Of a stretch of 32,000 nucleotides of DNA, positions 7,701 to 32,000 are shown in pieces. The stretch is taken from the NCBI RefSeq assembly GCF_034932365.1, contig NZ_JAYGHR010000068.1:179-32178 (forward strand). Reading direction: 5' to 3'. The notes below the pieces were generated by a model, which made no database searches, had not been told where the DNA came from, and worked only from the letters and a program-made list of their open reading frames with translations. This DNA comes from Limnoraphis robusta BA-68 BA1 (GTDB lineage: Bacteria; Cyanobacteriota; Cyanobacteriia; Cyanobacteriales; Microcoleaceae). Both the position numbers and the translations under genes were made by a program. Each line of letters opens with the position of its first letter. Position 1 is the stretch's first letter.

Positions 7701-7763
7701 TTGATTTTATTGTGGCTGTTGACGAATTACTCTATACCAAGCAAGATTGCCCAAGACAAACCC

Positions 7764-9509: not shown

Positions 9510-9587
9510 TTTGTTGAGCGTGTTGAGAGAGGATTTCAAGATTGTTTAATTAAATATTTTTGACCTTGGTGCAGAACTTAAAATATC

Positions 9588-10421
9588 ATGGCAGATGATT
9601 TACGCAAATGGATAGAAAATCTCTGGGGAGACGAGCCTCTGACAGCAGAAACCCAAAAAGAACTGGAACGTTTAATCTCTCCCCAGGTGATTGAGCTTGA
9701 TCATATCGAGAAAATTCATAGTTGGCTCAATGATTTGCGCCTGATGAAACAATGCGGCCGAATTATTGCACCGTCTCGAACGGGAAAATCTGTGACTTGC
9801 GACATTTATCGGCTGCTAAACAGACCTCAAAAACGCTTGGGAAGAAGGGATATTATACCCGTTTTATATACGCAAGTTCCGGGGGACTGTCAGTCGGGAG
9901 AATTATTATCCTTGCTACTGGAAGAATTAGGCTATGATGAAACCTCGGGCAACGTGACTCAACTTCGCCGCCGCTTACAGAGGTTACTCAAAGAGTCAAA
10001 GGTGGAGATGATTATTATTGATGAAGCCAATTTCCTCAACCTCAAAACCTTGAGTGAAATTGCGCGGATTCACGATATTTGCAGAATCTCAATGGTTTTA
10101 ACTGGAACAGATGAATTAGATAATCTAATAAAAAAAAAGGAGTACATTCACAGGCGATTTGTTGAATGTTATCGGCTCAAAGCCCTAACAGAAAATCAAT
10201 TCCCTAAAGTTGTTCAAATGTGGGAAGATGATATTGTTAAGCTGCCCGTTCCTTCTAACTTAACAAAGCCAGAAACCTTGAGACGATTGTACGAGAAAAC
10301 GGGTGGCACAATTGGTCTCTTGGATCGAGTTTTAAGAAGGGCTGCGATTCTTTCATTGAAGAAGGGCAATTCCAAGATTGATCGGGAAACTTTGGATGAA
10401 GTTCTGGTTCGATATGAGTAA
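9588..10421 (+). CDS. tnsC: AAA+ transposition regulator TnsC (short V-K type)
   Basis: 277 aa. Walker A is PSRTGKS and Walker B is MIIIDEAN. The sequence reads colinear with ShCAST TnsC as I recall it (VLTGTDELD, MWEDDIVKLPVPSNL). Confidence 0.88.
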   Translation: MADDLRKWIENLWGDEPLTAETQKELERLISPQVIELDHIEKIHSWLNDLRLMKQCGRIIAPSRTGKSVTCDIYRLLNRPQKRLGRRDIIPVLYTQVPGDCQSGELLSLLLEELGYDETSGNVTQLRRRLQRLLKESKVEMIIIDEANFLNLKTLSEIARIHDICRISMVLTGTDELDNLIKKKEYIHRRFVECYRLKALTENQFPKVVQMWEDDIVKLPVPSNLTKPETLRRLYEKTGGTIGLLDRVLRRAAILSLKKGNSKIDRETLDEVLVRYE

Positions 10422-10427
10422 TGAGAT

Positions 10428-10925
10428 ATGACTAATCGAAAACCTCAGCTTTTTACGGTTGAACCTCTCAAAGGAGAGAGTCTCAGCCATTTTTTGGGCA
10501 GGTTTCAGAGGGAAAATTATCTCAAGCCTGCTCAACTGGGCAAATTAACGGGATTGGGGGCTACAATCTCCCGGTGGGAAAAACTTTATTTGAACCCTTT
10601 TCCTCAACCTCAAGAATTGGAAGCATTGGCGGCTATTGTTCAAGTTGAAGTTGACAGACTGATGCTGATGCTTCCCCATCGAGGGATGACCTTACAACCC
10701 AGACCGATTTTGTTGTGTGGCGCTTGCTACCAAGAAAACCCCTGTCATCAAATTGTCTGGCAGTCGAAAAATAAGTTTGGGTGCGATCGCCATCAACTGC
10801 GTTTATTATCGAAGTGTACCAACTGTGGAACCCCCTTTTCAATTCCTGCTCAATGGATACAAGGAGAGTGTCCCCACTGTTTCCTACCATTCACAACAAT
10901 GCTAAAATGTCAAAAGCACCTCTAA
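10428..10925 (+). CDS. tniQ: TniQ family target-selection protein (short V-K type)
   Basis: 165 aa. The N-terminus (EPLKGESLSHFLGRFQRENYL) and Cys-rich zinc-finger part (LCGACY, CHQIVWQ, CDRHQLRLLSKCTNCGTPF, CPHC) closely parallel ShCAST TniQ as I recall it. Confidence 0.88.
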   Translation: MTNRKPQLFTVEPLKGESLSHFLGRFQRENYLKPAQLGKLTGLGATISRWEKLYLNPFPQPQELEALAAIVQVEVDRLMLMLPHRGMTLQPRPILLCGACYQENPCHQIVWQSKNKFGCDRHQLRLLSKCTNCGTPFSIPAQWIQGECPHCFLPFTTMLKCQKHL

Positions 10926-11645: not shown

Positions 11646-12530
11646 TTAAGTCCTGGGGGGGACACATACCACACGAAACCCGATAGTGAAGTTGGCGCTG
11701 GCGGGGTTATTGATCCTGCGGAACGCGGAGCGGCAGCGGCTTGGATTGAGATCCGAGGAGCCGCCACGAAGGACTCTTGTGTTATATGCAATATATGTAG
11801 TTTTTTTATTTTCTGACAACCACGCACGACCATCATCGGGTGCGCCTTCATAATTGTCGTGGAAATTATCTTCGCACCATTCCCAAACGTTGCCGTGCAT
11901 ATCGCACAAGCCAAAGGGATTCGCCACTTGGAAGTAGCCAACCGGAGTAGTTTGTTCTCGATCTTCTCCTTTGGGGCCTCTGCCGTAGGAACCGCTATAG
12001 ACGGTTTTGCCGCCAAATTCTTGATCCGTTCCACAATAGTTGGCCAGATCTGTGGTGATGGTTTCTCCAAAGTGAAAGGGTGTTGTGGTTCCGGCGCGAC
12101 AGGCGTATTCCCACTGGGCTTCGCTGGGCAGGCGGTAATCTCTGCCCGTTTTTTGACTCAATCGGGCGCAAAATTCTTTGGCATCAAACCAGGAGACTTG
12201 CTCAACTGGGCGACTCCAACGGTCGTAATTTTCGTAGGCATCTTTGAAGCGGGAGGGGTCGGGCTTGAGATCCCGTTCAATCTTTTCAGTAGTTTCAACA
12301 ACGGCTTTCCACTGACCCTGGGTGATAGGATAACGCCCCATAAAAAATTCTGAAATGGTAACTTCGTGTTGACGGCCTTCATCTTCGGAGCGTTCCAACT
12401 CATCCTCAGTCGAACCCATGAGAAACCTTCCTGCGGGAATTTTCATCATTGCCAGTTCAACATTATTACCCAACATTTCGACATAAAACTGGGCTTGTCC
12501 CGTTTGCTTGCGAATTGTTATTTTTGCCAT
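11646..12530 (-). CDS. Stand-alone FGE-sulfatase / C-type-lectin-fold protein, DGR target 2
   Basis: ORF 11646..12548, with the ATG at 12528-12530. Motifs: RFLMGS, HEVTISEFFMGRYPITQGQW, RLPSEAQWEYACRAG, HGNVWEWC, and C-terminal RGGS...GFRVVCVPPRT. It is paralogous to the C-terminus of ORF 14749..17682. Confidence 0.85.
   Translation of the reverse strand: MAKITIRKQTGQAQFYVEMLGNNVELAMMKIPAGRFLMGSTEDELERSEDEGRQHEVTISEFFMGRYPITQGQWKAVVETTEKIERDLKPDPSRFKDAYENYDRWSRPVEQVSWFDAKEFCARLSQKTGRDYRLPSEAQWEYACRAGTTTPFHFGETITTDLANYCGTDQEFGGKTVYSGSYGRGPKGEDREQTTPVGYFQVANPFGLCDMHGNVWEWCEDNFHDNYEGAPDDGRAWLSENKKTTYIAYNTRVLRGGSSDLNPSRCRSAFRRINNPASANFTIGFRVVCVPPRT
11649..11768 (-). other. DGR variable region VR2
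   Basis: The last ~40 codons of target 2. It aligns colinearly with 14752-14871, with identical anchors (cacgaaaccc, gcggagcggcag, ggagccgccacg) and clustered substitutions between them. Confidence 0.75.
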
Positions 12531-12533
12531 TTT

Positions 12534-12754
12534 GAAGTCAGAAGTCAATTTTGAAGTCAGAAGTCAGAAGTCAGAAGTCAGAAGTTAAGAGTTAAGCTGT
12601 TACACATCTAAAATTACACGACACCCAACACCCGTTTGAAGTCAGAAGTCAGAAGTCAGAAGTCAGAAGTCAGAAGTCAGAAGTCAGAAGTCAGAAGTCA
12701 GAAGTTAAGAGTTAAGCTGTTACACATCTAAAATTACACGACACCCAACACCCG
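12534..12754. repeat. (AGAAGTC)n heptamer arrays within a 120-bp tandem duplication
   Basis: Heptamer tracts at 12534-12547, 12553-12585 and 12638-12705. The 54-bp unique part gaagttaagagttaagctgttacacatctaaaattacacgacacccaacacccg is identical at 12581-12634 and 12701-12754. The array starts 3 nt upstream of the target-2 ATG. Confidence 0.9.
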
Positions 12755-12814: not shown

Positions 12815-13208
12815 TTATTCTTTGAGTTTTTTGAGAGTTGTCACTAATATTTTAATGATTTCTTCGGTTTCTTGGGTCAGTCCTTTGAACTTTTCTAATG
12901 ATACCAGTTCTGCTTCTACGATAACTTCCAGCCAGAATCGCGTTTCTCTTGCTTCCTTAAGAGCAATTTCATATTTACTAATAAAATCTCTTTTAGATTG
13001 AGCGGACTGAGCTTCACTGCAACTTGTTGATTACTCACACCATCCGCCAACATTAATCTTTCTCCCTAATTCTATCTCATTACTTCTGACTTCTGACTTC
13101 TGACTTCTGACTTCATCTAGATTGTCCTTCTAACCAAGTGCAAGCTTTGACTATTCTAACCGCAAACTTTTTGGTTCTTTCCTGAATAGAAACTTGTTGA
13201 TTACTCAC
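12815..13208 (-). pseudogene. Disrupted four-helix-bundle (Avd-like / 23S rRNA IVS-like) protein gene
   Basis: The minus strand encodes an N-terminal piece from GTG 13208 (MSNQQVSIQERTKKFAVRIVKACTWLEGQSR). The 95-bp repeat copy at 13021-13115 follows. Then comes a C-terminal piece in another frame (SEAQSAQSKRDFISKYEIALKEARETRFWLEVIVEAEL...KKLKE, stop at 12815-12817). About 20 central residues of the family pattern are missing. Confidence 0.6.
13021..13115. repeat. 95-bp direct repeat, copy 2 (contains a GACTTCT heptamer tract)
   Basis: aacttgttgattactcacaccatccgccaacattaatctttctccctaattctatctcattacttctgacttctgacttctgacttctgacttca. It differs from 13191-13285 at 3 of 95 positions. Confidence 0.9.
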
Positions 13209-13285
13209 ACTATCCGCCAACATTAATCTTTTTCCCCAATTCTATCTCATTACTTCTGACTTCTGACTTCTGACTTCTGACTTCA
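13191..13285. repeat. 95-bp direct repeat, copy 1 (forms the 3' end of the RT ORF)
   Basis: Same unit as 13021-13115, offset by 170 bp. It encodes the RT tail [24 protein letters not shown] and contains the RT stop (13210-12). Confidence 0.9.
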
Positions 13286-14313
13286 ATTGAGTTTCGGAGT
13301 TTGTGGGTGTCGCCGTGACGCAGGTGCGCCTCCCAACTTTGCATTCGCTGTTTTAATTTTTCCAGGGTAAGAGAACCCCGTTTGTACTCTTTCTGCATGG
13401 TTTTTAGCCTCAGCCTCCCCCGTCTCAAGTTATCGTTGCGAACCCGAATTTTCTCGGGAAATACTCTAAATCCCACGAAGTTTGCCCCGATGCGCGTTTC
13501 AAACAGTTGGCTTTTTATAGGATGAATTTTCAAGCGCAAACTTGCCAGATTTTCTTCGATTTTTTGTCGGGCTTCTGCTAACATTTCGCGATCGCCTGCA
13601 AAGAGCGCAAAGTCATCAACATACCTCAAATATTTCTGAACGCGCAGTTTTTCTTTTACAAAATGGTCGAAGCTATCGAGGTAGAAATTTGCTAAGAACT
13701 GACTGGTTAAATTTCCGATGGGCAAGCCTTTTCGTCGCACTACCGGAGTTAGCAAATCATCCCCCGGAAAATACTCGATTACGGGGTCTTGGGGGTTGCT
13801 ACCATCAATTATAGTATCGATTAGCCACAGGGTATCTTTACACTTGATTTTGCGCCGGATTTGGGCTTTGAGTATTTCGTGGTCTATGCTGGGAAAGTAT
13901 TTGCGAATGTCGCACTGCAATACATAGCTGCTGGAACGGGCAAATTGGGTGAAGCGTTGCAGCGCTCGGTGGGAACCGTAGCCTACTCGGTTGGCGTAGC
14001 TATCCCGAATAAATGACCGCTCTATCCGGGGGACGATAACGTTGCAGAGGGCGTGGTGAACAACCCGATCTCGGTAGGGTGCGGCCGAAATTAACCGGGG
14101 TTTGGGGTCGTAGATTTCAAAGGTTTTGTAGGCTCCGGGGCGGTAGGTTTTGTCTGTTAATTCGGTTTGGAGTTGAAATAAATTTGGCTCCAGGTTATAG
14201 TTGAATTCCAGTACGTTTTCTCGATATCGTTTGCCTTTTTGGGCGAGACGGGCGGCTAAATTTAAGTTCTCCCAGGCGAGAATTTCTGACCAAAGGTTTC
14301 CGTACCGCTTCAT
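13210..14313 (-). CDS. DGR-type reverse transcriptase
   Basis: 367 aa. RT motifs: [18 protein letters not shown]; [14 protein letters not shown] (the SQ motif I associate with DGR RTs); and the YVDDFALF catalytic box. It lies 9 bp downstream of an Avd-like gene and next to VR-bearing targets. Confidence 0.88.
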
Positions 14314-14322
14314 CCTATCTGT

Positions 14323-14661
14323 TTACCCCCTCTGCTGCTTGATCCATCCGCCTAGATCGTACCCTATTGCGCCGATTTGTTTGTTGATATATTCATAACG
14401 CTGTCCGGAAATGAGTTGAAAATCGTACAGCAAACGGGTTTGATATCGGATTATATCGAGTTGAATGTTAATACTTTCCAGGTGTTCTAATTTTTCTCCC
14501 CTGCTGAACCGGGCGCGAATTAATTTTTCCAGCAATTCATAGAGGTTGTTGATGATGCGATCGCCCAAACTAAATCGGTGATCCCTCGGCAAGCGATTCA
14601 AAATCGGAACGTACCACTTGATTAAATCATAGGTCTTCTGAATAATGGGCAGTTCGTTCAT
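14323..14661 (-). CDS. avd: DGR accessory variability determinant (Avd, four-helix-bundle protein)
   Basis: 112 aa. The N-terminus is IIQKTYDLIKWYVPILNRLPRDHRFSLGDRI. Its position between the VR-bearing target and the RT is the canonical DGR arrangement. Confidence 0.8.
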   Translation of the reverse strand: MNELPIIQKTYDLIKWYVPILNRLPRDHRFSLGDRIINNLYELLEKLIRARFSRGEKLEHLESINIQLDIIRYQTRLLYDFQLISGQRYEYINKQIGAIGYDLGGWIKQQRG

Positions 14662-14748
14662 ATTTTTTAACTTGAACTAAACATCAATATCTCCTCAAAT
14701 TTTCGACTCGCCAAAGGCGAGCATCCCGGAGGGCAAGAGGGCAAAGGG

Positions 14749-17674
<2,926 letters not shown>

Positions 17675-17682
<8 letters not shown>

Positions 17683-22535: not shown

Positions 22536-23813
22536 TTAGGTTTTCATCACTTTATTAACTGAGTAAATAGCCGTTGATAAAATTTCAGCAGCTTGTTCAA
22601 TTTCCTCGTCGGTCGTCAACTTACCAATTCCCATTCTTAACGCGCCCTCTACCAACTCAGAAGGTAAGCCCAAAGCTTGCAGGACATGGGAAGGTGCCTC
22701 TACACCCGACGAACAAGCAGCACCCCTAGAAATGGCTAATTTTGAACGCACTCTGGCAATAATGGCACTGTTAGGAATGCTGGGGACTGAGATGTGGAGG
22801 TTTCCCGCCAAACGGCAGTCCGTATCTCCATTGATAACTAGATTTGGAATAGCATCGGACAAAAGCTTTTGGAGTCGATCTCGCTTGGCTGCTATCGCCA
22901 ATTCATCTTGTTCCATCTCCAGCTTTCGCAACCGACACGCTTCTCCGAGTGCAACGATTCCCGGCACGTTGAGAGTTCCCGATCGCATTCCTTTCTGATG
23001 TCCGCCCCCGTAGAGAATGGGTTTTAGGCTATGTCCTTTCTGCACCACCAACGCCCCCACACCTTTTGGCCCGTAGAGTTTATGAGCGGAAATCGCAAGA
23101 TAGGTAATTCCCCACTCTGCAAAATTAATCGGAATTTTACCAACAGCTTGGGAAGCATCGCAAAGGAACGGAATGTTATATTTTTGGGCAATCTGGCCAA
23201 TTTGTTGAATTGGATAAATATTACCAATTTCATTATTAGCTGCCATAACGCAGAGTAGAGAAAGACCGCCAGCGCAAATTTTATCTAAATATTCGAGGTC
23301 AATTTTTCCTTTAGAATCAACTAGAATGGAAATCACTTCTGCAAGCCCTTTTTTGGCAATTTCTTCGCAGGTATCTAAAACAGCTTGATGTTCAACAGTT
23401 GTTATAGCGATTCGAGGTAATGTTTGAGATTTTCTATTAATTAATTTATCAATAATCCAGTTGAGGATTCTTTTGAATATAGATTTTTTAGCTAATATTT
23501 TATTTTTGCGCTCATTTCTTTGCTGATTATTCCGATCAAGGCTGCCGAAAATAGCAAGATTAATACTCTCCGTTGCTCCTGATGTCCAAACAATCTCTTT
23601 GGGGGAAGCTCCAATTAAATCTGCAACATGAATTGCAGCCTGATTAACGGCTTTTTCAGCTTCATCTCCATATTCGTGATCGATACTGCTGGCATTTCCA
23701 AATGCTGTGGTCATATAGTAAAGCATTCGTTCCGCCACTCTTGGATCAATTGGAGTGGTTGAATGGTAGTCTAAATATATTACGTTGTTATTTTTATTAC
23801 TACTCATACACAA
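22536..23813 (-). CDS. Class V aminotransferase-fold cysteine desulfurase (NifS/IscS/DndA-like)
   Basis: 425 aa. Motifs: SGATESINLAI; the PLP-lysine motif ISAHKLYGPKGVGAL; and the catalytic Cys loop SRGAACSSG. The start lies 2 nt after the BrxL-like stop. Confidence 0.85.
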   Translation of the reverse strand: MCMSSNKNNNVIYLDYHSTTPIDPRVAERMLYYMTTAFGNASSIDHEYGDEAEKAVNQAAIHVADLIGASPKEIVWTSGATESINLAIFGSLDRNNQQRNERKNKILAKKSIFKRILNWIIDKLINRKSQTLPRIAITTVEHQAVLDTCEEIAKKGLAEVISILVDSKGKIDLEYLDKICAGGLSLLCVMAANNEIGNIYPIQQIGQIAQKYNIPFLCDASQAVGKIPINFAEWGITYLAISAHKLYGPKGVGALVVQKGHSLKPILYGGGHQKGMRSGTLNVPGIVALGEACRLRKLEMEQDELAIAAKRDRLQKLLSDAIPNLVINGDTDCRLAGNLHISVPSIPNSAIIARVRSKLAISRGAACSSGVEAPSHVLQALGLPSELVEGALRMGIGKLTTDEEIEQAAEILSTAIYSVNKVMKT

Positions 23814-23815
23814 AA

Positions 23816-25264
23816 CTATTTAGCTTCTACATGAATATCTCGACCAAACTGTCTAAACTCATCGTCTAGATAATATAATGAGTTGCGAATTCCTTGGCGC
23901 AACTTTTGAGCAGGTTCTAAGCAGTCTCGCTGGTAATCCGTCAAGGTTAAATCAAGGTGAGGATAAAGAAGTTTAAGAAAACCGGCCGATGATTTTAAAA
24001 TTGAATTTTGATCGCGCACTGAAACATTTTCAAAATGTGTGTGTTCTTGAACATAAGAGAAAAAACTATGTTCATAGCGTAAAGAAAGTAAGACTTCTCC
24101 AAAAAAGTCCATCTTTAATCCTACTTGTGTTGCAGCCATTTCTCTGCGGAATTTAGGAATTTCCCAACCGGGGATAATACCAGCAAAACGATCTAAAAAT
24201 GCAGTTTCTGAAAAGAATATAGGTAAATTCTTAATAAGATTTTCCTGATGTCGTGGTTTTAAATATTCATCGAGTTCAATATTGGCAAGCATTACAAGAG
24301 AGCAGTCACTAGAAATATCTGCGAAGCCAGAACGGTTATATCGACCATTAGCGAGATAAGTTTTTAAAACACCAATGACTTCATCAGGATTGTCAAAAGT
24401 GAGACTTTGAACTTCGTCTAAAACCAAGACATCATTCCGCCCCAGCAGCCCAATTTCCTTCGTTTTTCCATTGACAAATAATTGGGCGGGGGTAACTTTT
24501 CCTCCACCAATAACTGTGACTTTACTGCTGATATTTTCAAAGACAAAACTTTTACCTGTACCTTTAGGGGCAAGTTCTATAATATGAAAATTGGGTTCGA
24601 CTAAAGGTAAAAGACGAGCTAAAATCCAAGTTTTTGCTTCGCTAGTGTATTTAGAATGTTCGGGATTAAATCCCATCGAACAAAACAGTAAATCCTTCCA
24701 TTGTTCCGTATTAAATTGCCTTCTACATTCTGCATAAGCTTGTAAATTAACTTCAGAATACTGAAAAGGTTCAAAATCGAGAATTTCTACTGTTCCATCG
24801 GGTTGTAAGCCGAGTAAAATTTTTCCCCATAAACCGTGACGGAGTAGCTTTCTATGCTGGTTGATTAAATGAGTTGAGATTGAACAATTATTTAAGTTAA
24901 GAATTGGAACTCTAGCAAAAGGTTCAGGTATAGTTTTTGAATTTTGTTCTAGAATAACCCGAGCTTGCATCAAAGCAATTAACTTTACAGTTTCTCCTTG
25001 AGATAGATTAAACTGAATTTCATTGCGATCATCTTTACGAGGAAAAGCTTTTTTAACAAATGTACTAACTTTATCTAATTCTGCTTGAGTGAGATTACCT
25101 GTACCTGGAACAATTTTATCCAATAGCCATTCTGCTACAAAACTAGGAACACCAACGGCTGTGAGTCCGCTAGAAGGAAGTCGGGCTTTATCAATACAAA
25201 GTGTTCCAAAAGTTTGGCGAACTAATTCATTTTGATAACCCGTTAAATTAGAGGAATTCATCAA
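23816..25264 (-). CDS. BrxL-like AAA ATPase lacking the Lon-protease domain (TIGR02688-like)
   Basis: 482 aa. The N-terminus (VPSFVAEWLLDKIV...KVSTFVKKAFPRKDD) parallels the BrxL N-terminus as I recall it. Walker A is LAPKGTGKSFV and Walker B is VLVLDEVQS. It overlaps the PglZ stop by 17 nt. Confidence 0.6.
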   Translation of the reverse strand: MMNSSNLTGYQNELVRQTFGTLCIDKARLPSSGLTAVGVPSFVAEWLLDKIVPGTGNLTQAELDKVSTFVKKAFPRKDDRNEIQFNLSQGETVKLIALMQARVILEQNSKTIPEPFARVPILNLNNCSISTHLINQHRKLLRHGLWGKILLGLQPDGTVEILDFEPFQYSEVNLQAYAECRRQFNTEQWKDLLFCSMGFNPEHSKYTSEAKTWILARLLPLVEPNFHIIELAPKGTGKSFVFENISSKVTVIGGGKVTPAQLFVNGKTKEIGLLGRNDVLVLDEVQSLTFDNPDEVIGVLKTYLANGRYNRSGFADISSDCSLVMLANIELDEYLKPRHQENLIKNLPIFFSETAFLDRFAGIIPGWEIPKFRREMAATQVGLKMDFFGEVLLSLRYEHSFFSYVQEHTHFENVSVRDQNSILKSSAGFLKLLYPHLDLTLTDYQRDCLEPAQKLRQGIRNSLYYLDDEFRQFGRDIHVEAK

Positions 25265-27470
25265 TATCTAGTCCACTACTAAAAATTTGTTTAACAATAA
25301 GGCTTGATTCTAATATGTTCGCTTTATCAGTTTCAGCATTGGTGTATTCAAACGTAAGGTAGCCAGAAAGTTTAATACTTTGTTCATTGACTTGGGAAGG
25401 CAATTCTGGAAAAGCTGGAATTGGAAGGTTGAGAACTTGTTTTTCATTTGCTGAAATAGTATGGAGCAAAGGGTATCCCTTTTGAAAAGTAGGTAGTTCT
25501 TCAATATAAAGCCATAAGTTTGTTATGGAAATTGAGTTAGGGTTGTCTATCGTAACTTTAATTTGTCCAGGTTCTCTGGGTTTCCCTTCTCCCCAACAAG
25601 AAACAAAAATAGGAAGTCGCTGAGTACATTGACGCAATACTGAAAAACCAACGATAACTTCTTCTGGAAATAAACCACCATGAGAGCCTATGACTTGTTT
25701 TTCTTTAGTGTAGCTGAAAGCGTTGACTGTAGCCGAACTGCGAACAATGCTAATGTCATGGGGAAGATCATAGCGATCGCAGTCTAATACAACAAATCGA
25801 GAATCATCAGTTTTACCGATTCCCATTCTACCCTTTGCTTGCAGTTCTGATGGACAAGCAGACAGAAAGTTAGATAAGCCCAAGATTTGACCGTGATCGC
25901 TAGCGATCACAACAGTTAGGTTCTCAGGTTGAGGATGTTGTTTAATACAGTGATGAATTTCACGAGCAATTTGTTCTAAAATTGAAGGACGCTTTACTTG
26001 ATAAAAGTTAAGCCAATCAACACGATCATGATATAATTCATCAAGCTTGGTAGTATCCCAACAATAAAGTAAATGTTTGTTTGCTTTTAGATCTTGATAT
26101 AGACTGTCCATTTGTGTATCCGTGTACCGTTTTCCCTTCCCTAATTTTTCAAATACTTTACTGCAATTATTTGTCCAATCTAGCGATTTTGGTGTTTTTT
26201 GAGCATAAAGTCCCCATTTTGCGTATTCAGTTTTTGTAGGTAAAAGACTAAACCGAGGTTGAATTTCGGTTTCAAGGTTTAATCCATAAGAATCTTTCAA
26301 GTAAGATAATAAATCCAGGTGATCTAGCCATCCTAAACCATCTATAACAACCCAAAAAACTGGATTTTTATTGCATAAGTTTAGAGTATGCTCGGTAACG
26401 TTATAGTTGAGCAAAGAACTATTTACAGGAGCAACTTTTAACTGAGGATAATATTCCAATAACCATTCAATAAAACTATCAGCAAGATAATCACTAAATT
26501 TTTCCGATGTTGATACTTGCTGTAGCATAATCTCCCAACGTCGAAACGGTAAATATTTTTGCGTTACCCAATTAAGCGTTTGCTCGGGTGTTGCAGATAA
26601 AGGTAAAGGCTCGGGTTTAAGTGGTGGCTGACAATTATGAAGATGTTGTTTTTGCTCTTGATTAAGATAGTTTGCTAGTCGCTTTTCTCTATTGTTGATA
26701 ATCCATTTTTGCCGATTAGAAAGAACTTGATAAGCTACATTAGCAACCCGTTTCATATCAGCTTGTTTTGAAGGAATAAGCTCGTCAAGAATTTTGCACT
26801 CAGTTTTATAAAGTTGCTCTTGCCAATAACGCTCAAATTCTACAGACAACCAATTTGGAACAGGATTAGGAAAAACATCAATTTCGTGAACTTGAGGCTC
26901 TGCAATTCCTAACCATTGCCTTAGTAACTGAACTTTATTATCAGTTTGGTAATAGGAAGAAAGATTTGAATTTTTGCGTTGATGTTGCCAAACTTTTTCT
27001 AATGGTTGATACTCAGCACTAACTTGAATACTTAACCAAGCTGCAAGGTTTTCTTCAGAAGGTTCCTTTTGCCAAAGGTCGTTTTGAGTTTGTTCTGTTA
27101 AGTAATCTGCAATGGCAGTTTTTCTGGGATAGCGGCTTAATTGAGTAGCAAGGTTGAGTCGCTGTTCATTTGTCCAGTAATCAGGAATAGGTACAGAACC
27201 AAAAATAGATTCTAGCTCAATGCAAGGATCTTTTTTGATCTCTAGGATCGCATCAGTTTTATTCCATACCCGCAGCCATTCTTGAGACCAATCACAAAGT
27301 TGCTTTGCATTAGATCCTTTTCCTGTTACCCAGTAGCGCCCTGGCAAAACAAAAAATGACTTTATCCATTCAACTTCAGTTTTTATTACCGTGTAACCCT
27401 GGGGAATATCATACAGTCCAGTGGGATCTAATACAACTGTGAAGTCACTAGAAGCAAGATAATTAATCAT
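25248..27470 (-). CDS. pglZ: PglZ-domain (alkaline-phosphatase superfamily) protein
   Basis: 740 aa. Motifs: VFWVVIDGLGWLDHL, TVVIASDHGQILG, GSHGGLFPEEVIVGF. The ATGATTAA overlap (8 nt) joins it to the upstream giant gene. Confidence 0.8.
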   Translation of the reverse strand: MINYLASSDFTVVLDPTGLYDIPQGYTVIKTEVEWIKSFFVLPGRYWVTGKGSNAKQLCDWSQEWLRVWNKTDAILEIKKDPCIELESIFGSVPIPDYWTNEQRLNLATQLSRYPRKTAIADYLTEQTQNDLWQKEPSEENLAAWLSIQVSAEYQPLEKVWQHQRKNSNLSSYYQTDNKVQLLRQWLGIAEPQVHEIDVFPNPVPNWLSVEFERYWQEQLYKTECKILDELIPSKQADMKRVANVAYQVLSNRQKWIINNREKRLANYLNQEQKQHLHNCQPPLKPEPLPLSATPEQTLNWVTQKYLPFRRWEIMLQQVSTSEKFSDYLADSFIEWLLEYYPQLKVAPVNSSLLNYNVTEHTLNLCNKNPVFWVVIDGLGWLDHLDLLSYLKDSYGLNLETEIQPRFSLLPTKTEYAKWGLYAQKTPKSLDWTNNCSKVFEKLGKGKRYTDTQMDSLYQDLKANKHLLYCWDTTKLDELYHDRVDWLNFYQVKRPSILEQIAREIHHCIKQHPQPENLTVVIASDHGQILGLSNFLSACPSELQAKGRMGIGKTDDSRFVVLDCDRYDLPHDISIVRSSATVNAFSYTKEKQVIGSHGGLFPEEVIVGFSVLRQCTQRLPIFVSCWGEGKPREPGQIKVTIDNPNSISITNLWLYIEELPTFQKGYPLLHTISANEKQVLNLPIPAFPELPSQVNEQSIKLSGYLTFEYTNAETDKANILESSLIVKQIFSSGLDIDEFL

Positions 27471-30400
27471 TAGTCTCCTCTAATTTAATATTTAACAATT
27501 GGGTAAGTTTTTCATAAATACTTTGACGTTGAAGCAGAGGAAGTTGGCAAAACATTGTAATAATTTTATTCGCCTGGTCTTTATTCTGCTCTTCTTGACA
27601 TTGGCGTTTTATTAAGTTTAATGATTCTTGATTGGCAGAGTTTAAAAATTCTATATATTGAGAAGTTTCATTTTGAATTTTAGCTAATAACTGATTTGCA
27701 ACTTGCAGTTTTTCTGTATCATCAAGTAACGGATATAGTTTTGTTACTTCTTGCTGCAAACCTTCTAGCCAAACAAAAGCTTGAGATTGTTGGTGTTCTC
27801 GAAGAGTATTTTGGGTGCTTTCAATCTCCTGATAAAAAGTATCAAATAACTCTTCGGTTATTGGGGTGAGAGCATCGGACGTTCGCTTCCAACCGATCAA
27901 CTTGTCTAAACATTCCTGGCAAGATTTAATGGTAGAGTGAGAAATAGAAGAAGTAATCTGTAGAATGTCAATTGCTTGTCGAATGTTATTTTTAAGTGTT
28001 TTATAGCGTTCTTCTTGTACTGAACCTAAGTACAAAGATGAAATTTCTAGAACCTCTTCTAGAAGCTGTTGGGCTGTCGCAATATTGCTTAAAGATTGCA
28101 GTCTGTTTTCAAACTCTGCTAAATTTAGAGTTAAACTTCTTATTTTTTTCCGGATATTTTCTTTTGTAGTTATAATTCGGGATTTTATTTTATCCTCCAA
28201 TTCTTTATTTTCTACACTGTTAAAACTCTCAATATCAGCCAATAACTTGGTTAATTCAGCAAGCCTTGTTACCCGATTTGCTTCAGAATCCCAGCGTTCA
28301 ATTTGCTCAATTATTGATCTTCTAGAAGCAAACTTTTTCTCTGTCTTCTGATAATTATCGTATTCATTAGATTGCTGAAAAATTATATCAAGCTTGATAT
28401 AATTCTCTTCTAATTTCTTAAACTCTTTTAAACTATCAATTTTTTCAAGGTAATTACTTTGAGCTTCAAGATTGGCTTTATGATTGAGAATTGTTTGTTT
28501 TAATTTTTGAATATGATTCTCAATTTCTACTTCATGGTCTTGAATATAGAACAGTTCACTTTTCAATTTTTCTATTTGTTTGATTCTTTCTTCGCATTGA
28601 AAAACGTTCAAATTATTGTCAAATTTAAACTGACGAATGCTTTGAAGTATTTTTAAATCATTATCTTTTATCTTCAACTGTTCTTGTTCTTCTGTTAAGT
28701 CTTTATAATCAACTTCTAGGTTCTCAATAGCTTGATTAATATCAGTCTGAATTTCTTGAAAATCTTCTGATTTTTGTAAAATTTTTGTGATTTCATTTAA
28801 ACGATTTTTAAGCTTTTCATATTCATCTAGACGAGGGAGTTTATTACTTATGCTATTCTTAATTTTTTCCAAAAATGTTATTTTACTTTGAGACTTAATA
28901 TCTTCAAGTTGTTTTTGGTACTGTTCTAGAGAACTTACCTCCAAGTGACTGGTTTGTAAACTACTTAAGGTGATTTCTTGATACACAGAGAAAGCTTCCG
29001 ATATCTTTGAGAAGGGTAAATCACGAATTCGTTGAAGCTTATCTTGAACTTTAGAAAGTTCTGAACGCAGTATTTTCTCTGCATCGCTTTGCTGTTGAAT
29101 TACGGACAACTCTTCTGTTAGTTGAGTTTGAAGATATTGAATTCGAGAACTACTTTCTGGTTCAGTAAATCGATTAGCTTGACTTTCAATTTTTCTAATT
29201 AATTCTACAATTTCACTGGGGGAGGTCACAACAGCTAACTGTTCTTGCCAAGCATCTAGCTGTTCATTTAATTCTTGATACTTAATATTTATCTCCTTGA
29301 TAATTTGCTGAATTTCAATTAGAGAAATGGTTTGAGGAAGAGAAATCATTATTAACTCAATTTCTGATTGAGCCTCAGTAAAATCATGCTGAGTTGAATT
29401 TTGATTTAAGTTTTGATAAAGTTCCTGAATTTTTTTAAGAGATTCATCAGTTTGAGCTTTTTCTTGAAGTTTAAGTTTGGAGTTTTCAGACCTATTCTTA
29501 GCAGATTGTAAGGTTTCAATCAAGTGTTCTGGAAGTCCAGAAACTTCACTAATTTTTTGTATATATTCTTCTGCTTTATTTATACATATATCACATTCTT
29601 CAATCGTATTTAGAGATTCTGAACCTTCTCTAAAATCTGATACTAGCTTGCTAATTTTGTCGAATAACGCTTGTTTTGCTTGCGTATAGCGATTTTGCTG
29701 TTCTTGGGTCGGTTGAACTGAGATTCCATCGGAGGAGGTTTGAACACTTGGAGAAAAGGGAAGGAATTTAGGATATAACTTCAGTAAACTGTTCAGATCT
29801 GTTGACTTAGATAAGTCTTCTACTTCTACTATGACAGCAAACCCATCATCAATTTCCTTCACTTTATTAGTGATTTGTTCTTGCTGTTGACGAAGTTTTG
29901 AAGTTTCTGTTTGATCGGCTTCACCAGAATTAAGAAACTCAGTTATAGCTTGTAAATGCTGTTGCGCTTTGTTGTAATCTATCAATGAATCAAGAAGTTC
30001 GGGAACTGTTAATCGTTCACGACGGATCAATTTTGCTCGATGAGTGACAATCCATTTTTCAACGAAGTCTTTAGGTTTTTTAAAAATGTCAGTATTAGCC
30101 CAATCTTGTAAAGGAAGAGTTAGTATAGAAACTGGACTTCCCTTTTTGACTAATACTGTACTTGCCCCTTTCAAAACTATCTCTTTACGATGGTAAGCCA
30201 TCCATGAAACTATCAAAACAGTGAACACATAATCATTACAACCAAAAGGCGGTTCGGATAAAGCTTTCCAAACTTTTTCAAGCTCAATAATTTTTTCATT
30301 CTTATCCTTCAATTCAGTTAATTCAGAAATTTTATCCCAAGCTGCTCGGACGTGTTCTTCGGTGGGAGGTTGAACAACATATTTCTGAGAGGATTTTTGA

Positions 30401-32000
30401 AAGAGCTTCCAACAACTACAGAAGACTTGATCAATAGTATTGCGATAGAAAGATTGAGTTGGTAAACCTTGAGGCGTAAACTGATCGGCAGCAAGTTGTT
30501 GAGCTACACAGGCTGCAATTTGCGATCCACTTGAATGGCCTGAGCGCATTTTATCAACTTTAGCCACTGGAGGAACAAAGGGATATAATTCTTGTAGCAA
30601 GGCGCTGATAATTCGCTGAGGCACGTTTTGGGCAACCGAGGGGATTTTATCACTTTGACTGCAATGATAAGTGCAGTCAGTCAAAATATTTTTAAGCTGT
30701 GTATCAAACTGTTCTGTCCATCGTTCCATCAATCGGTTGTAAGCTATTCCCATAAGCCTTTTTTCAGAAGGTTGTTTATTTTTCAGTTCTGTTATTCGTA
30801 GAAGAACTCGATCTAAATCTCCTGTTTCTTGATTAGGAATTGCTATTGCTATTCGATTTTTATGATGAGAACTAGCCAAATGTTTATTTACATTTTTACG
30901 AAACTCTTGCAATTCTTCTTGGGTTTTAGCTAAAACATAAGTCAAAATTCCCCTGGCTGAAACGTTTTTTAATGTCAGATGGCTAGACAATGCTTTTTCT
31001 AATTCATTGATGGTATAAATTTTATATTCATATTGCCAATCTTCTCCAATTAATTGATTAGTTTCTACAAACTCACTGGCAACTAAAGTTTCATTGCCCA
31101 GGTAGGTTTTTATATCGCTATTTGCCTGGACTACAACATCCGTAATAAATGATGGTTTTCCTTTTATTTTTTCTTCAATTTCATCTTCAATTCCTCGAGG
31201 ACTAACCCCTTCAAAAAATTTGTATAGTTTGATTTCGGGACGATAGTAGATTAGATCATGAATTTCTTTAAGTTGATTTAATGCTATTTTTAAAGGAGAA
31301 CGATTTAAGCCAGTCAAACAAGACAATATATCTTCATGATCTTCTCGTTCAGGCTTGGTTAGCCTTTCTCCAGCCGCATAGTATAAAAATAAAGCTTTAA
31401 GAACGGTGATAAGTTCATCTGAGTTTTCTGAACCTATCACCTGCTTACAAGCTTTTTTATAACTTTCATAAATGGGCTGATTTGAGAAATTCTCACTAAA
31501 AGTATCAACTAGAGAAATAGGATAAATATAGTTCAAGTTGCTATTTGATTCAAGTGACTGTTCTTGAATAAATGTCTTAACGTAGCCTTTGATAAATTGA
31601 AGGGCAGTTCTATCTTGAGTAAAATCTAAATAACACAGTAAATAAGTGGTAACGGGATGAAGAGGAAAACATCCGATAGAAATGTGTTCATAAAACTGCT
31701 CAAAAGACCAACCCTTTTCTTGATAAATTCTTGTTACTTTTTCAAAGGTTTTCCTTCCTTCGGACAAGAATGTATTATCCCATCTTGTTTTTAATTCTTG
31801 CCAAAGTTTAGTTTGTTTTTGAATTAAGAGATTGCCAATTACTAACTCAAGACAAGAAGTCAAACCATCATAAGTAGTGTCTTTGGGGGCAAGTCGTGTA
31901 GAAATTTTTAAATAGCTTTCTCGGTTATTTTCTGAAATTCCTACTGCTTTGTCTGGATGAATCTGAGTAAAACTGAGGAGAGAAATTTTTCCTCGATATC
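27463..32000 (-). CDS. BrxC/PglY-like giant protein, 5'-truncated by the window edge, with a long C-terminal coiled coil
   Basis: The ORF track starts it at TTG 31863. The same frame stays open with no stop up to position 32000, so the N-terminus (the expected P-loop part) lies outside the window. FPLHPVTTYLL and EPPFGCNDYVFTVLIVSWMAY resemble the DUF499/BrxC patterns I recall. Residues ~650-1466 are heptad-rich and Glu/Lys/Gln-rich. Confidence 0.6.
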   Translation of the reverse strand, partial: YRGKISLLSFTQIHPDKAVGISENNRESYLKISTRLAPKDTTYDGLTSCLELVIGNLLIQKQTKLWQELKTRWDNTFLSEGRKTFEKVTRIYQEKGWSFEQFYEHISIGCFPLHPVTTYLLCYLDFTQDRTALQFIKGYVKTFIQEQSLESNSNLNYIYPISLVDTFSENFSNQPIYESYKKACKQVIGSENSDELITVLKALFLYYAAGERLTKPEREDHEDILSCLTGLNRSPLKIALNQLKEIHDLIYYRPEIKLYKFFEGVSPRGIEDEIEEKIKGKPSFITDVVVQANSDIKTYLGNETLVASEFVETNQLIGEDWQYEYKIYTINELEKALSSHLTLKNVSARGILTYVLAKTQEELQEFRKNVNKHLASSHHKNRIAIAIPNQETGDLDRVLLRITELKNKQPSEKRLMGIAYNRLMERWTEQFDTQLKNILTDCTYHCSQSDKIPSVAQNVPQRIISALLQELYPFVPPVAKVDKMRSGHSSGSQIAACVAQQLAADQFTPQGLPTQSFYRNTIDQVFCSCWKLFQKSSQKYVVQPPTEEHVRAAWDKISELTELKDKNEKIIELEKVWKALSEPPFGCNDYVFTVLIVSWMAYHRKEIVLKGASTVLVKKGSPVSILTLPLQDWANTDIFKKPKDFVEKWIVTHRAKLIRRERLTVPELLDSLIDYNKAQQHLQAITEFLNSGEADQTETSKLRQQQEQITNKVKEIDDGFAVIVEVEDLSKSTDLNSLLKLYPKFLPFSPSVQTSSDGISVQPTQEQQNRYTQAKQALFDKISKLVSDFREGSESLNTIEECDICINKAEEYIQKISEVSGLPEHLIETLQSAKNRSENSKLKLQEKAQTDESLKKIQELYQNLNQNSTQHDFTEAQSEIELIMISLPQTISLIEIQQIIKEINIKYQELNEQLDAWQEQLAVVTSPSEIVELIRKIESQANRFTEPESSSRIQYLQTQLTEELSVIQQQSDAEKILRSELSKVQDKLQRIRDLPFSKISEAFSVYQEITLSSLQTSHLEVSSLEQYQKQLEDIKSQSKITFLEKIKNSISNKLPRLDEYEKLKNRLNEITKILQKSEDFQEIQTDINQAIENLEVDYKDLTEEQEQLKIKDNDLKILQSIRQFKFDNNLNVFQCEERIKQIEKLKSELFYIQDHEVEIENHIQKLKQTILNHKANLEAQSNYLEKIDSLKEFKKLEENYIKLDIIFQQSNEYDNYQKTEKKFASRRSIIEQIERWDSEANRVTRLAELTKLLADIESFNSVENKELEDKIKSRIITTKENIRKKIRSLTLNLAEFENRLQSLSNIATAQQLLEEVLEISSLYLGSVQEERYKTLKNNIRQAIDILQITSSISHSTIKSCQECLDKLIGWKRTSDALTPITEELFDTFYQEIESTQNTLREHQQSQAFVWLEGLQQEVTKLYPLLDDTEKLQVANQLLAKIQNETSQYIEFLNSANQESLNLIKRQCQEEQNKDQANKIITMFCQLPLLQRQSIYEKLTQLLNIKLEETND

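What the first reader, a model, noticed from the sequence alone, without database searches (positions are those of the whole stretch)
22536..32000. BREX type-4-like operon (BrxC/PglY, PglZ, BrxL-like) translationally coupled to a cysteine desulfurase
The gene order giant BrxC/PglY-like, PglZ, BrxL-like matches the 3' part of type 4 BREX (brxP-brxC-pglZ-brxL in Goldfarb et al., 2015). Type 4 is the BREX class with a PAPS-reductase (DndC/SspD-like) gene instead of a methyltransferase. Here a NifS/DndA-like cysteine desulfurase starts 2 nt after the BrxL-like stop. The other junctions overlap by 8 and 17 nt, so the desulfurase appears to be an integral fourth or fifth gene. In Dnd and Ssp systems, cysteine desulfurase plus a PAPS-reductase-like enzyme is the sulfur-insertion core for DNA phosphorothioation. 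I infer that this BREX variant marks self DNA with sulfur rather than methyl groups. To my knowledge the type 4 BREX mechanism is uncharacterised. By eye this block is more AT-rich than the rest of the window. It has only one HIP1 site, at its 3' side (25783), which hints at separate acquisition.
Basis: partly seen in the sequence, partly recalled or inferred. Interest (0 to 1): 0.8.

Follow-up and report, generated by a model that had tools for sequence, protein, structure and literature searches.

The report
Sulfur-linked BREX-like defence locus, writer broken
This is the downstream half of a cyanobacterial anti-phage island that pairs BREX-like genes with a DNA-sulfur (phosphorothioate) marking system; the idea is already published, and in this strain a selfish nuclease cassette just outside the window has deleted key marking genes.

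Summary
On the minus strand of 22536-32000 lie four tightly packed genes: a giant ATPase, PglZ, a short BrxL and a DndA/SspA-type cysteine desulfurase. The gene junctions, the AT-richness and the single HIP1 site are as described.

- The contig is from Limnoraphis robusta Tam1. It has no PAPS-reductase gene (brxP, sspD or dndC) in the 15 kb upstream.
- Upstream are sspB, a truncated sspC, and a 3-kb LAGLIDADG + HTH-HNH cassette.
- A 94%-identical relative shows that this cassette replaced the sspC 3' end, sspD and a DUF4007 (BrxA-like) gene.

I surveyed 79 cyanobacterial loci. The block belongs to a conserved five-gene module: DUF4007-like, a 146-aa protein, the giant ATPase, PglZ and BrxL. 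The module sits inside dnd clusters, inside ssp clusters, or alone. The desulfurase follows BrxL only in ssp clusters (11/13, against 0/14 in dnd and 1/15 alone). It is therefore SspA.

The main ideas are already published in 2026:
- BREX type 4 makes phosphorothioate DNA.
- ssp and brx genes lie together in cyanobacteria.

This locus is an undescribed variant architecture of a known kind, with a disrupted writer. Interest is modest.

The parts
27463..32000 (-). Giant BrxC/SspC-like ATPase, residues 300-1810 of 1810. The N-terminal 299 residues lie beyond the window edge and carry Walker A (GKGKS, residues 77-81) and Walker B (LFDE, residues 267-270). Residues up to about 948 (window about 30052-31998) form the SspC-homologous core. 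Residues 949-1810 (window 27466-30051) are a long tail without detectable homologues, probably coiled coil.
   Evidence: ORF and open frame to the window edge. Full length from contig JAYGHS010000098.1. Invariant P-loop and Walker B in 12 homologues. hhalign against SspC: 97.7% probability, E 1.5e-12, giant 241-948 aligned to SspC 177-849. PADLOC SspC 3.4e-14. No Pfam, NCBIfam or PDB sequence match. At least 248 homologues; all named ones are cyanobacterial and carry no functional annotation.
25248..27470 (-). PglZ, an alkaline-phosphatase-superfamily phosphodiesterase/nuclease-type protein of 740 aa. It overlaps the giant gene by 8 nt.
   Evidence: PADLOC PglZ 2.7e-23 over residues 107-657. 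Pfam PglZ 23.3 bits, just below the cut-off of 25. AlphaFold2 model with mean pLDDT 89.6. Foldseek best matches are PorX (a PglZ-type domain, E 5e-14), then NPP/ENPP phosphodiesterases. Invariant D377, T412, T414, H526 and H597, and near-invariant D525, in 35 homologues.
23816..25264 (-). Short BrxL of 482 aa: BrxL_N plus the BrxL AAA+ ATPase domain, without the C-terminal Lon protease domain. It overlaps PglZ by 17 nt (14 nt with the ATG start).
   Evidence: TIGR02688 at 420 bits, above the 329 cut-off. Pfam BrxL_ATPase 5e-103 and BrxL_N 2e-21. PADLOC BrxL 3.9e-125. It matches only residues 33-456 of the solved 679-aa BrxL (8emc), E 1.3e-54.
22536..23813 (-). SspA/DndA-type cysteine desulfurase, 425 aa from the TTG or 423 aa from the ATG at 23807. 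It starts 2 or 8 nt after the BrxL stop.
   Evidence: PADLOC DndA 1.8e-134 and SspA 5.9e-133. Pfam Aminotran_5 1.6e-64. It scores below the NCBIfam cut-offs for NifS, IscS and DndA. The residues I take to be the PLP-binding Lys (SAHKLYGPKG) and the catalytic Cys (GAACSSG) are conserved. It follows BrxL in 11/13 ssp-context loci, 0/14 dnd-context loci and 1/15 stand-alone loci.
23423..23537 (-). Strain-specific in-frame insertion in the desulfurase, about 35 aa and rich in Lys and Asn.
   Evidence: Absent from 9 orthologues and from the 94%-identical relative L084. Pfam matches the protein in two separate stretches.
25773..25780 (.). The only HIP1 (GCGATCGC) site in the block.

Best explanation
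Window 22536-32000 is the downstream half of a cyanobacterial defence island. The island couples an Ssp-type DNA phosphorothioation (PT) writer to a BREX-like effector module.

In intact relatives the gene order is: sspB - sspC - sspD (a roughly 265-aa PP-loop/PAPS-reductase-like protein) - [DUF4007/BrxA-like - 146-aa protein - giant BrxC-like ATPase - PglZ - short BrxL] - sspA.

The desulfurase in the window is SspA. From what is known of Dnd and Ssp systems, I infer that it takes sulfur from cysteine as a persulfide and passes it to SspD. SspD, with the SspB nickase and the SspC ATPase, then puts sulfur into the DNA backbone.

I infer that the five-gene module is the effector arm. Its gene order matches BrxA-BrxB-BrxC-PglZ-BrxL of type 1 BREX without the methyltransferase. 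By analogy with BREX, it would bind and scan DNA and block replication of DNA that lacks the host mark.

In this strain, Limnoraphis robusta Tam1, a 3.0-kb cassette has replaced 3.1 kb of the island. The cassette carries a LAGLIDADG endonuclease gene on the opposite strand and an HTH-HNH nuclease gene. The lost DNA held the last ~400 codons of sspC, all of sspD, and all but 22 codons of the DUF4007-like gene. The locus therefore cannot write PT by itself. The four window genes and the 146-aa gene remain intact.
For: Shown by tool results:
- Gene identities.
- Upstream context of the same contig.
- Survey of 79 species-level loci. Among 42 well-covered loci the five-gene module is present in all. 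There are 14 dnd-context, 13 ssp-context and 15 stand-alone loci. SspA follows BrxL in 0/14, 11/13 and 1/15 of them.
- SspD has a PAPS_reduct domain (6e-13) and an SGGKDS PP-loop motif.
- Relative L084/L085 (metagenome ERZ25039549) is 94.4% identical in DNA from the last 66 nt of the DUF4007-like gene through most of sspA (broken only by Tam1's extra ~115 nt; the rest of sspA is 89.5% identical). It carries intact sspC (1171 aa), sspD and the DUF4007-like gene where Tam1 has the cassette.
- tblastn finds no SspD remnant. It finds SspC only to residue 748, and only residues 254-275 of the DUF4007-like protein.
- The window genes are full length. Against that relative, dN/dS is 0.19-0.33.
- BrxL and SspA overlap or lie within 10 nt in 10 of 18 loci.

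From the literature:
- BrxP+BrxC make PT. BrxP is in effect an SspD-SspB fusion and BrxC is an SspC homologue. sspBCD lies next to brxCZL in some cyanobacteria (PMC12914056).
- A desulfurase is found in 56% of type-4 BREX taxa. DUF4007 is BrxA-like. BrxC carries a coiled-coil tail (PMC12839542).
Against: - No experiment bears on this locus. PT in L. robusta DNA, anti-phage activity and co-transcription are all untested.
- The promoter and terminator scans show nothing above chance.
- The 146-aa protein has no detectable homology to BrxB or to anything else. The BrxA-B-C parallel therefore rests on gene order alone.
- The module also occurs alone next to housekeeping genes in 15 of 42 loci, so its dependence on PT is not proven.
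- I could not search the rest of the Tam1 genome. A second dnd or ssp writer elsewhere could supply PT in trans.
- The dN/dS values cover both lineages since they split. They cannot show that selection continued after the deletion.
Confidence: 0.8

Rival explanations
1. This is a self-contained canonical type 4 BREX operon (brxP-brxC-pglZ-brxL plus desulfurase), with brxP just beyond the window edge.
For: The order giant ATPase - PglZ - BrxL matches type 4. BrxL is of the TIGR02688 type. A desulfurase is common in type 4 loci (PMC12839542).
Against: No PAPS_reduct gene lies in the 15.4 kb upstream, and tblastn finds no remnant. Separate sspB and sspC genes are present instead of a BrxP fusion. 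The giant protein is a second, divergent SspC/BrxC paralogue alongside a bona fide SspC.
Confidence: 0.03
2. The locus still works as a defence system. PT is written by another dnd or ssp cluster elsewhere in the Tam1 genome, and the intact effector genes (146-aa protein, giant ATPase, PglZ, BrxL) and SspA still function without the DUF4007-like partner.
For: All four window ORFs are full length and have low dN/dS. dnd and ssp clusters co-occur in some cyanobacterial genomes (PMC12914056). The same module works beside dnd writers in 14 loci. Housekeeping desulfurases and dedicated ones can replace each other in PT systems (PMC12839542).
Against: The DUF4007-like gene is present in 42 of 42 well-covered loci but deleted here, which suggests an essential partner is missing. 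No second writer was seen on the 43 kb of this contig that I could read.
Confidence: 0.3
3. The locus is a recently inactivated relic. After the cassette removed sspD and the DUF4007-like gene, the remaining genes are no longer needed and have simply not yet decayed.
For: The deletion and replacement are clean and look recent. The flanks are 94% identical to an intact relative. The desulfurase has acquired a strain-specific 35-aa insertion. Related loci show many truncated PglZ, giant or SspA genes.
Against: There are no frameshifts or stop codons in 9.3 kb of coding sequence. dN/dS is 0.19-0.33, although that value mostly reflects the time before the deletion.
Confidence: 0.35
4. The desulfurase is an ordinary NifS/IscS housekeeping enzyme that happens to lie next to a defence operon.
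For: The top NCBIfam hits by E-value are NifS and IscS. Its GC3 (0.35) resembles that of neighbouring genes more than that of the BREX-like genes, which are at 0.23-0.25.
Against: It is below the curated cut-offs for NifS (363 against 531) and IscS. Its best PADLOC matches are DndA and SspA. Its position after brxL is conserved in 11/13 ssp-context loci and absent in 0/14 dnd-context loci. The start and stop codons often overlap by 4 nt.
Confidence: 0.03

Closest known systems
Type 4 BREX (brxP-brxC-pglZ-brxL, with an optional cysteine desulfurase): Goldfarb 2015; Yuan et al. Nat Commun 2026 (PMC12914056); NAR 2026 (PMC12839542)
   Same: It has a BrxC/SspC-family ATPase followed by PglZ and a short (TIGR02688) BrxL, with a DndA-like desulfurase at the operon end. 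It has no methyltransferase inside the module. It is linked to DNA phosphorothioation genes.
   Different: - There is no BrxP (a PAPS-reductase-DUF4007 fusion).
- In intact relatives the writer is a separate sspB-sspC-sspD set, or a dnd cluster.
- The module carries its own second DUF4007-like gene, a 146-aa gene, and a second ATPase.
- That ATPase is highly divergent, 1810 aa long, with a tail of about 860 aa and no Pfam match.
- In Tam1 the writer is disrupted.
SspABCD phosphorothioation system with SspE (Xiong et al. 2020, as cited in PMC12914056)
   Same: sspB (PADLOC 1e-118), sspC and an SspA-type desulfurase are present. Relatives have sspD and sometimes a GmrSD-type SspE.
   Different: sspA is separated from sspBCD by a five-gene BREX-like module. 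In Tam1 sspD is absent and sspC is truncated. The presumed restriction arm is BREX-like and not SspE or SspFGH.
Cyanobacterial neighbourhoods 'sspBCD near brxCZL' and 'dndBCDE with brxL, brxZ, sspB and a methyltransferase' noted by Yuan et al. 2026 (PMC12914056, section 6)
   Same: These are the same kind of loci. My survey recovers both contexts, including the TIGR04096 PT-associated methyltransferase.
   Different: The paper notes only that the genes lie together. Its description of the dnd-context example lists no brxC, presumably because the giant ATPase is too divergent to detect. It does not describe the conserved five-gene unit, the stand-alone copies, or the HNH/LAGLIDADG replacement of writer genes.
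Type 1 BREX (brxA-brxB-brxC-pglX-pglZ-brxL)
   Same: The gene order is parallel: DUF4007-like (BrxA-like according to PMC12839542), a small protein, a BrxC-like ATPase, PglZ, BrxL. BrxL matches the solved type 1 BrxL (8emc) over its N-terminal and ATPase domains.
   Different: There is no PglX methyltransferase. BrxL lacks the Lon protease domain. The small protein shows no detectable similarity to BrxB.

Membership tests
BREX type 4 | brxP: a PAPS-reductase-domain gene (usually fused to DUF4007) in the operon | tested here: not met
   No PAPS_reduct gene is called in 15.4 kb upstream or 9 kb downstream. tblastn with six SspD seeds on L002 and the window finds nothing at E<1 apart from one chance-level match (E 0.47) inside the unrelated RT gene.
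BREX type 4 | BrxC/PglY-family P-loop ATPase | tested here: met
   Walker A and Walker B are invariant. hhalign against SspC gives 97.7% probability and E 1.5e-12 over 630 columns. PADLOC SspC 3.4e-14 and BrxC 1e-4. The homology is remote; there is no Pfam or NCBIfam hit.
BREX type 4 | PglZ-domain protein | tested here: met
   PADLOC PglZ 2.7e-23. The predicted fold matches the PorX PglZ-type domain at E 5e-14. Pfam scores 23.3 bits, just under its cut-off of 25.
BREX type 4 | BrxL (Lon-like ATPase) | tested here: met
   TIGR02688 at 420 bits against a cut-off of 329. Pfam BrxL_N and BrxL_ATPase. PDB 8emc at E 1.3e-54.
BREX type 4 | Phosphorothioate modification of host DNA that depends on the locus | not testable with these tools
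   This needs LC-MS/MS or PT-seq on L. robusta DNA.
SspABCD | SspA cysteine desulfurase | tested here: met
   PADLOC SspA 5.9e-133. It co-occurs with sspBCD in 11/13 loci and with dnd or stand-alone contexts in 1/29.
SspABCD | SspB (DUF4007) | tested here: met
   L002 3267-4202: PADLOC SspB 1.3e-118 and Pfam DUF4007. It lies outside the window.
SspABCD | Full-length SspC ATPase | tested here: not met
   The protein is 741 aa and covers only positions 1-724 of the 1104-position SspC model. It aligns to residues 2-748 of the 1153-aa Plectonema SspC, and no remnant of the rest is found.
SspABCD | SspD (PAPS-reductase-like ATP pyrophosphatase) | tested here: not met
   Absent from the locus. It is present in 12/13 well-covered ssp-context relatives and in the 94%-identical relative L084.
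DndABCDE | dndC, dndD and dndE next to the desulfurase | tested here: not met
   None is found in L002 or the window. They are present around the same module in Nostocales loci.
PbeABCD (archaeal PT-dependent system) | HKD nuclease-SF2 helicase, small protein, CxC ABC ATPase and a DndE cognate | tested here: not met
   I had remembered Pbe as BREX-like, and that was wrong. PMC10853773 gives the composition listed here, and none of these proteins is in the locus.

The most novel reading that the evidence does not exclude
The five-gene unit (DUF4007/BrxA-like, 146-aa protein, giant BrxC paralogue, PglZ, short BrxL) may be a self-standing BREX-like effector that has no writer of its own. It would read phosphorothioate marks made by either of two unrelated-in-detail writers: Dnd (marks on both strands) or Ssp (marks on one strand). 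This would explain why it is embedded in both kinds of cluster and why it keeps its own DNA-binding and ATPase paralogues in addition to those of the writer. A linked possibility concerns the HTH-HNH (+/- LAGLIDADG) cassette. It may be a selfish or competing element that specifically replaces PT-writer genes.
Probability: 0.35. Interest if true: 0.55.

Novelty: new variant of a known kind. Interest (0 to 1): 0.33.

Why it matters
The headline idea is already in the literature, so the finding does not open a new field. That idea is a BREX-type system that marks self DNA with sulfur and has a dedicated cysteine desulfurase.

What this locus and its relatives add:
- A clearer parts list for the cyanobacterial version. 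The writer (Ssp or Dnd) and the BREX-like effector are physically separable. The effector has its own BrxA-like and BrxC-like paralogues. The same effector is found with two different PT writers and also alone.
- That makes it a good natural system for asking what the BREX core (BrxC, PglZ, BrxL) senses.
- A natural knock-out in Tam1. The writer and the BrxA-like gene are removed by a nuclease cassette while the effector genes stay intact. Compared with the 94%-identical intact relative, this could show whether the effector is toxic, inert or still protective without its mark.

Tried and rejected
- PbeABCD as the closest known system. I rejected it after reading PMC10853773: Pbe is an HKD-helicase/CxC-ABC ATPase system and is not BREX-like.
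- dndCDE downstream of the desulfurase. Rejected. Downstream is an unrelated system (Trypco2, TCAD3-CHAT-EAD9, EAD9-VMAP, MoxR ATPase, SAV_2336-N/FGE-sulfatase) followed by bAvd and an RT.
- The 146-aa protein as BrxB. Pfam, PADLOC, NCBIfam and a PDB profile search all found nothing. It remains unassigned.
- The HTH-HNH protein as a sulfur-binding-domain (ScoMcrA-like) PT-dependent nuclease. A PDB profile search and Foldseek on an AlphaFold2 model (pLDDT 81.8) gave only weak Cas9-type HNH matches and no SBD match. This is not supported, but whole-chain Foldseek cannot exclude it.
- Sequence search of the giant protein against the PDB. It gave only chance coiled-coil hits.
- Promoter and terminator scans. 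They showed no excess over shuffled sequence.
- HIP1 depletion as evidence of foreign origin. It is marginal (P = 0.05), and the AT-richness is family-wide.
I got around this through the homology search.
- I could not search the rest of the Tam1 genome for a second PAPS-reductase gene.

Full report
**1. What is in the window**

On the minus strand of 22536-32000 there are four co-directional ORFs with overlapping or nearly abutting ends.
- A giant ORF runs from 27463 and is still open at the window edge.
- A 740-aa ORF lies at 25248-27470, a 482-aa ORF at 23816-25264, and a 425-aa ORF at 22536-23813.
The first two overlap by 8 nt and 17 nt. There is a 2-nt gap before a TTG start of the last gene, or 8 nt before the ATG that gene callers chose.

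Family searches give the following.
- The 482-aa protein is a short BrxL. It scores 420 bits on TIGR02688 (cut-off 329) and has the Pfam BrxL_N and BrxL_ATPase domains.
- It matches residues 33-456 of the solved 679-aa BrxL, so it lacks the Lon protease domain.
- The 740-aa protein is a PglZ protein. PADLOC gives 2.7e-23, and Pfam gives 23.3 bits, just under its cut-off.
- An AlphaFold2 model of it (pLDDT 89.6) matches the PglZ-type domain of PorX at E 5e-14, then NPP-type phosphodiesterases.
- The residues expected for a metal site and a Thr nucleophile are invariant or nearly so in 35 homologues.
- The 425-aa protein is a class-V aminotransferase-fold cysteine desulfurase. Its best matches are PADLOC DndA and SspA, at 1e-134 and 6e-133.
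- It scores below the curated NifS, IscS and DndA cut-offs of NCBIfam.

**2. The giant protein**

The full protein is 1810 aa, from contig JAYGHS010000098.1 of Limnoraphis robusta Tam1. It has no Pfam, NCBIfam or PDB sequence match.
- Twelve homologues share an invariant Walker A (GKGKS) and Walker B (LFDE).
- A profile-profile comparison with the SspC proteins of related loci gives 97.7% probability and E 1.5e-12. It aligns 630 columns, giant 241-948 to SspC 177-849.
- The protein is therefore a remote SspC/BrxC paralogue. Its last ~860 residues have no detectable homologues. Weak PDB hits to coiled-coil proteins suggest a coiled coil.
- BrxC proteins are reported to carry coiled-coil tails of 250-500 residues (PMC12839542).
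- The family has at least 248 members. All named ones are cyanobacterial and carry no functional annotation.

**3. What lies beyond the window**

It does not. Reading upstream to downstream, the contig carries:
- a GmrSD_N protein and a small HTH protein;
- sspB (DUF4007; PADLOC 1e-118);
- sspC of 741 aa, which covers only positions 1-724 of a 1104-position SspC model;
- a 64-aa ORF and a LAGLIDADG endonuclease gene on the opposite strand;
- a 465-aa HTH_3 + HNH_4 protein and a 146-aa protein;
- then the giant gene.

tblastn with six cyanobacterial SspD sequences finds no remnant in the locus or the window.

Downstream of the desulfurase is an unrelated system: Trypco2, CHAT, VMAP, MoxR and an FGE-sulfatase-domain protein.

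**4. Comparison with relatives**

A scan of one genome per species returned 79 loci with a giant homologue, almost all cyanobacterial. I annotated them with phmmer seeds.
- A five-gene unit is conserved: a DUF4007-like protein (~276 aa), the 146-aa protein, the giant ATPase, PglZ and BrxL.
- Of 42 loci with enough flanking sequence, 14 lie inside dnd clusters. These have a PT-associated methyltransferase (TIGR04096) and dndE on one side and dndD and dndC on the other.
- Another 13 follow sspB-sspC-sspD. The remaining 15 stand alone among housekeeping genes.
- A desulfurase follows brxL in 0/14, 11/13 and 1/15 of these three groups. In 10 of 18 ssp-context loci it overlaps brxL by 4-19 nt or lies within 10 nt.
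- So the desulfurase is part of the operon, but it belongs to the Ssp writer. It is SspA and not a generic component of the BREX-like unit.
- SspD in these loci is a ~265-aa protein with a PP-loop (SGGKDS) and a PAPS_reduct domain.

**5. The Tam1 locus is a damaged copy**

A metagenomic relative (ERZ25039549) is 94.4% identical in DNA across most of the shared region. That region runs from the last 66 nt of the DUF4007-like gene through p146, the giant gene, pglZ, brxL and most of sspA. It is broken only by the ~115-nt insertion in Tam1's sspA, after which identity falls to 89.5%.
- To the left of that point the relative has a full-length sspC (1171 aa), sspD and an intact DUF4007-like gene.
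- In Tam1 those 3.1 kb are replaced by the 3.0-kb LAGLIDADG + HTH-HNH cassette.
- sspC stops at residue ~748 of 1153, and only residues 254-275 of the DUF4007-like protein remain.
- The four window genes and the 146-aa gene are full length. Against the relative they show dN/dS of 0.19-0.33. This shows past purifying selection but cannot date the deletion.
- dS differs strongly along the locus: sspC 0.65, giant 0.18, pglZ 0.14, brxL 0.01, sspA 0.32. This indicates a recombination mosaic.
- The Tam1 desulfurase also carries a unique 35-aa insertion.

**6. The cassette**

The HTH-HNH family is large, with at least 1097 hits, and the named members are cyanobacterial. It turns up repeatedly at damaged PT-writer genes.
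- In Plectonema it sits where sspD should be.
- In two survey loci it is flanked by sspD fragments, and in one of those also by a truncated sspC.
- In Euhalothece it directly follows an sspC truncated only 14 residues before the Tam1 truncation point, and is itself followed by an sspA fragment.
- In Nodosilinea it lies between sspBC and sspA with no sspD.
- In Calothrix NIES-3974 it sits next to an sspA fragment.
- sspD is intact in 0 of 6 loci with the HNH gene and in 16 of 17 without it. Fisher P is about 7e-5, but the loci are not phylogenetically independent.
- The N-terminal domain of the protein matches nothing known. A sulfur-binding-domain relationship was sought and not found.
- Whether this is a homing-type selfish element or a competing nuclease system is open.

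**7. How it most likely works**

Shown: the gene identities, the synteny and the deletion.

Inferred from the published behaviour of Dnd, Ssp and type 4 BREX systems:
- SspA mobilises sulfur from cysteine.
- SspD, SspB and SspC install single-strand phosphorothioates at short motifs.
- The BREX-like unit distinguishes marked from unmarked DNA and blocks replication of the latter. Its parts are a BrxA-like DNA binder, a small partner protein, the BrxC-like ATPase with a long tail, the PglZ phosphodiesterase/nuclease and the BrxL ring ATPase.

In Tam1 the writer cannot function from this locus alone. Either PT is supplied in trans, or the remaining genes are a recent relic. I cannot decide between these with the tools at hand.

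**8. Comparison with what is known**

- Yuan et al. (PMC12914056) showed genetically that BrxP+BrxC of type 4 BREX synthesise PT.
- They also showed that BrxP is in effect an SspD-SspB fusion and that BrxC is an SspC homologue.
- They noted that sspBCD operons lie near brxCZL genes in some cyanobacteria. In Fischerella they found dndBCDE clustered with brxL, brxZ, sspB and a methyltransferase.
- The NAR 2026 survey (PMC12839542) found a cysteine desulfurase in 56% of 457 type-4 taxa and proposed it as a sixth core component.

Strict membership in type 4 BREX fails on brxP, and membership in SspABCD fails on sspD and on a full-length sspC. The locus is best described as a variant architecture of the PT-linked BREX/Ssp kind. 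In it the writer and a BREX-like unit that has no writer gene of its own are separate. It is caught here in a disrupted state.

**9. Composition**

- The block is AT-richer than the rest of the window (35.6% against 41.2% GC) and has 1 of the 14 HIP1 sites.
- The same AT bias relative to flanks is seen in 42 of 45 related loci. It is a property of the module and not evidence of a recent separate arrival in this genome.
- The desulfurase has a GC3 of 0.35, like its neighbours. The three BREX-like genes have 0.23-0.25.

**Verdict**

- Observation: confirmed.
- Interpretation: partly supported.
- Novelty: a new variant of a known kind.
- Interest: modest, about 0.33.

Noticed in passing
window 13210-17682 (minus strand), plus 11646-12548: A bAvd-like gene (14323-14661) and a reverse transcriptase (13210-14313) follow a 977-aa protein that ends in an FGE-sulfatase (C-type-lectin-fold) domain. 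This is the layout of a diversity-generating retroelement attached to the MoxR/VMAP/CHAT/Trypco2 system. A second 300-aa FGE-sulfatase ORF shares 133-nt 3'-end repeats with the first (76% identity). The mismatches are not adenine-specific, and I did not find a template repeat.
   Followed up: partly
window 7701-10925 (plus strand): A Tn7-like transposition gene set: a TnsB-like transposase (Mu-transposase C-terminal and rve domains, 602 aa), TniB/TnsC (277 aa) and TniQ (165 aa). I did not check whether it is CRISPR-associated.
   Followed up: no
window 12536-12754 and 13021-13285: Tandem heptamer repeats (GAAGTCA)n, and a 95-nt direct repeat pair (97% identity) that flanks the 3' end of the RT gene.
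   Followed up: no
L002 6413-9421 (same contig, just beyond window position 32000): A 3.0-kb LAGLIDADG (minus strand) + HTH-HNH (plus strand) cassette replaces the sspC 3' end, sspD and the DUF4007-like gene. The HTH-HNH family (at least 1097 members) recurs next to truncated ssp or dnd genes in at least six other cyanobacteria. sspD is intact in 0 of 6 loci with it and 16 of 17 without it.
   Followed up: partly
L007, L011, L037, L041, L053, L057 and others; proteins P0126, P0139, P0142, P0195: In many relatives the PglZ ORF is 1200-1600 aa long. Database homologues of 990-1240 aa carry an N-terminal Ser/Thr protein kinase, and several also a NERD domain. This recalls PglW of type 2 BREX.
   Followed up: no
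window 23816-25264 compared with L085 9206-10651: brxL is 99.6% identical in protein (dS 0.01) to the metagenomic relative, while neighbouring genes have dS of 0.14-0.65. This implies recent recombination or gene conversion confined to brxL.
   Followed up: partly
window 23423-23537: A strain-specific, in-frame, Lys/Asn-rich insertion of about 35 aa in the cysteine desulfurase. It is absent from all nine orthologues compared and from the 94%-identical relative. Its effect on activity is unknown.
   Followed up: partly
L047, L048, L050, L083 and other stand-alone loci: Stand-alone copies of the five-gene module often have a truncated PglZ (about 110-220 aa) or a split giant gene. This suggests decay when no PT writer is adjacent.
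   Followed up: no
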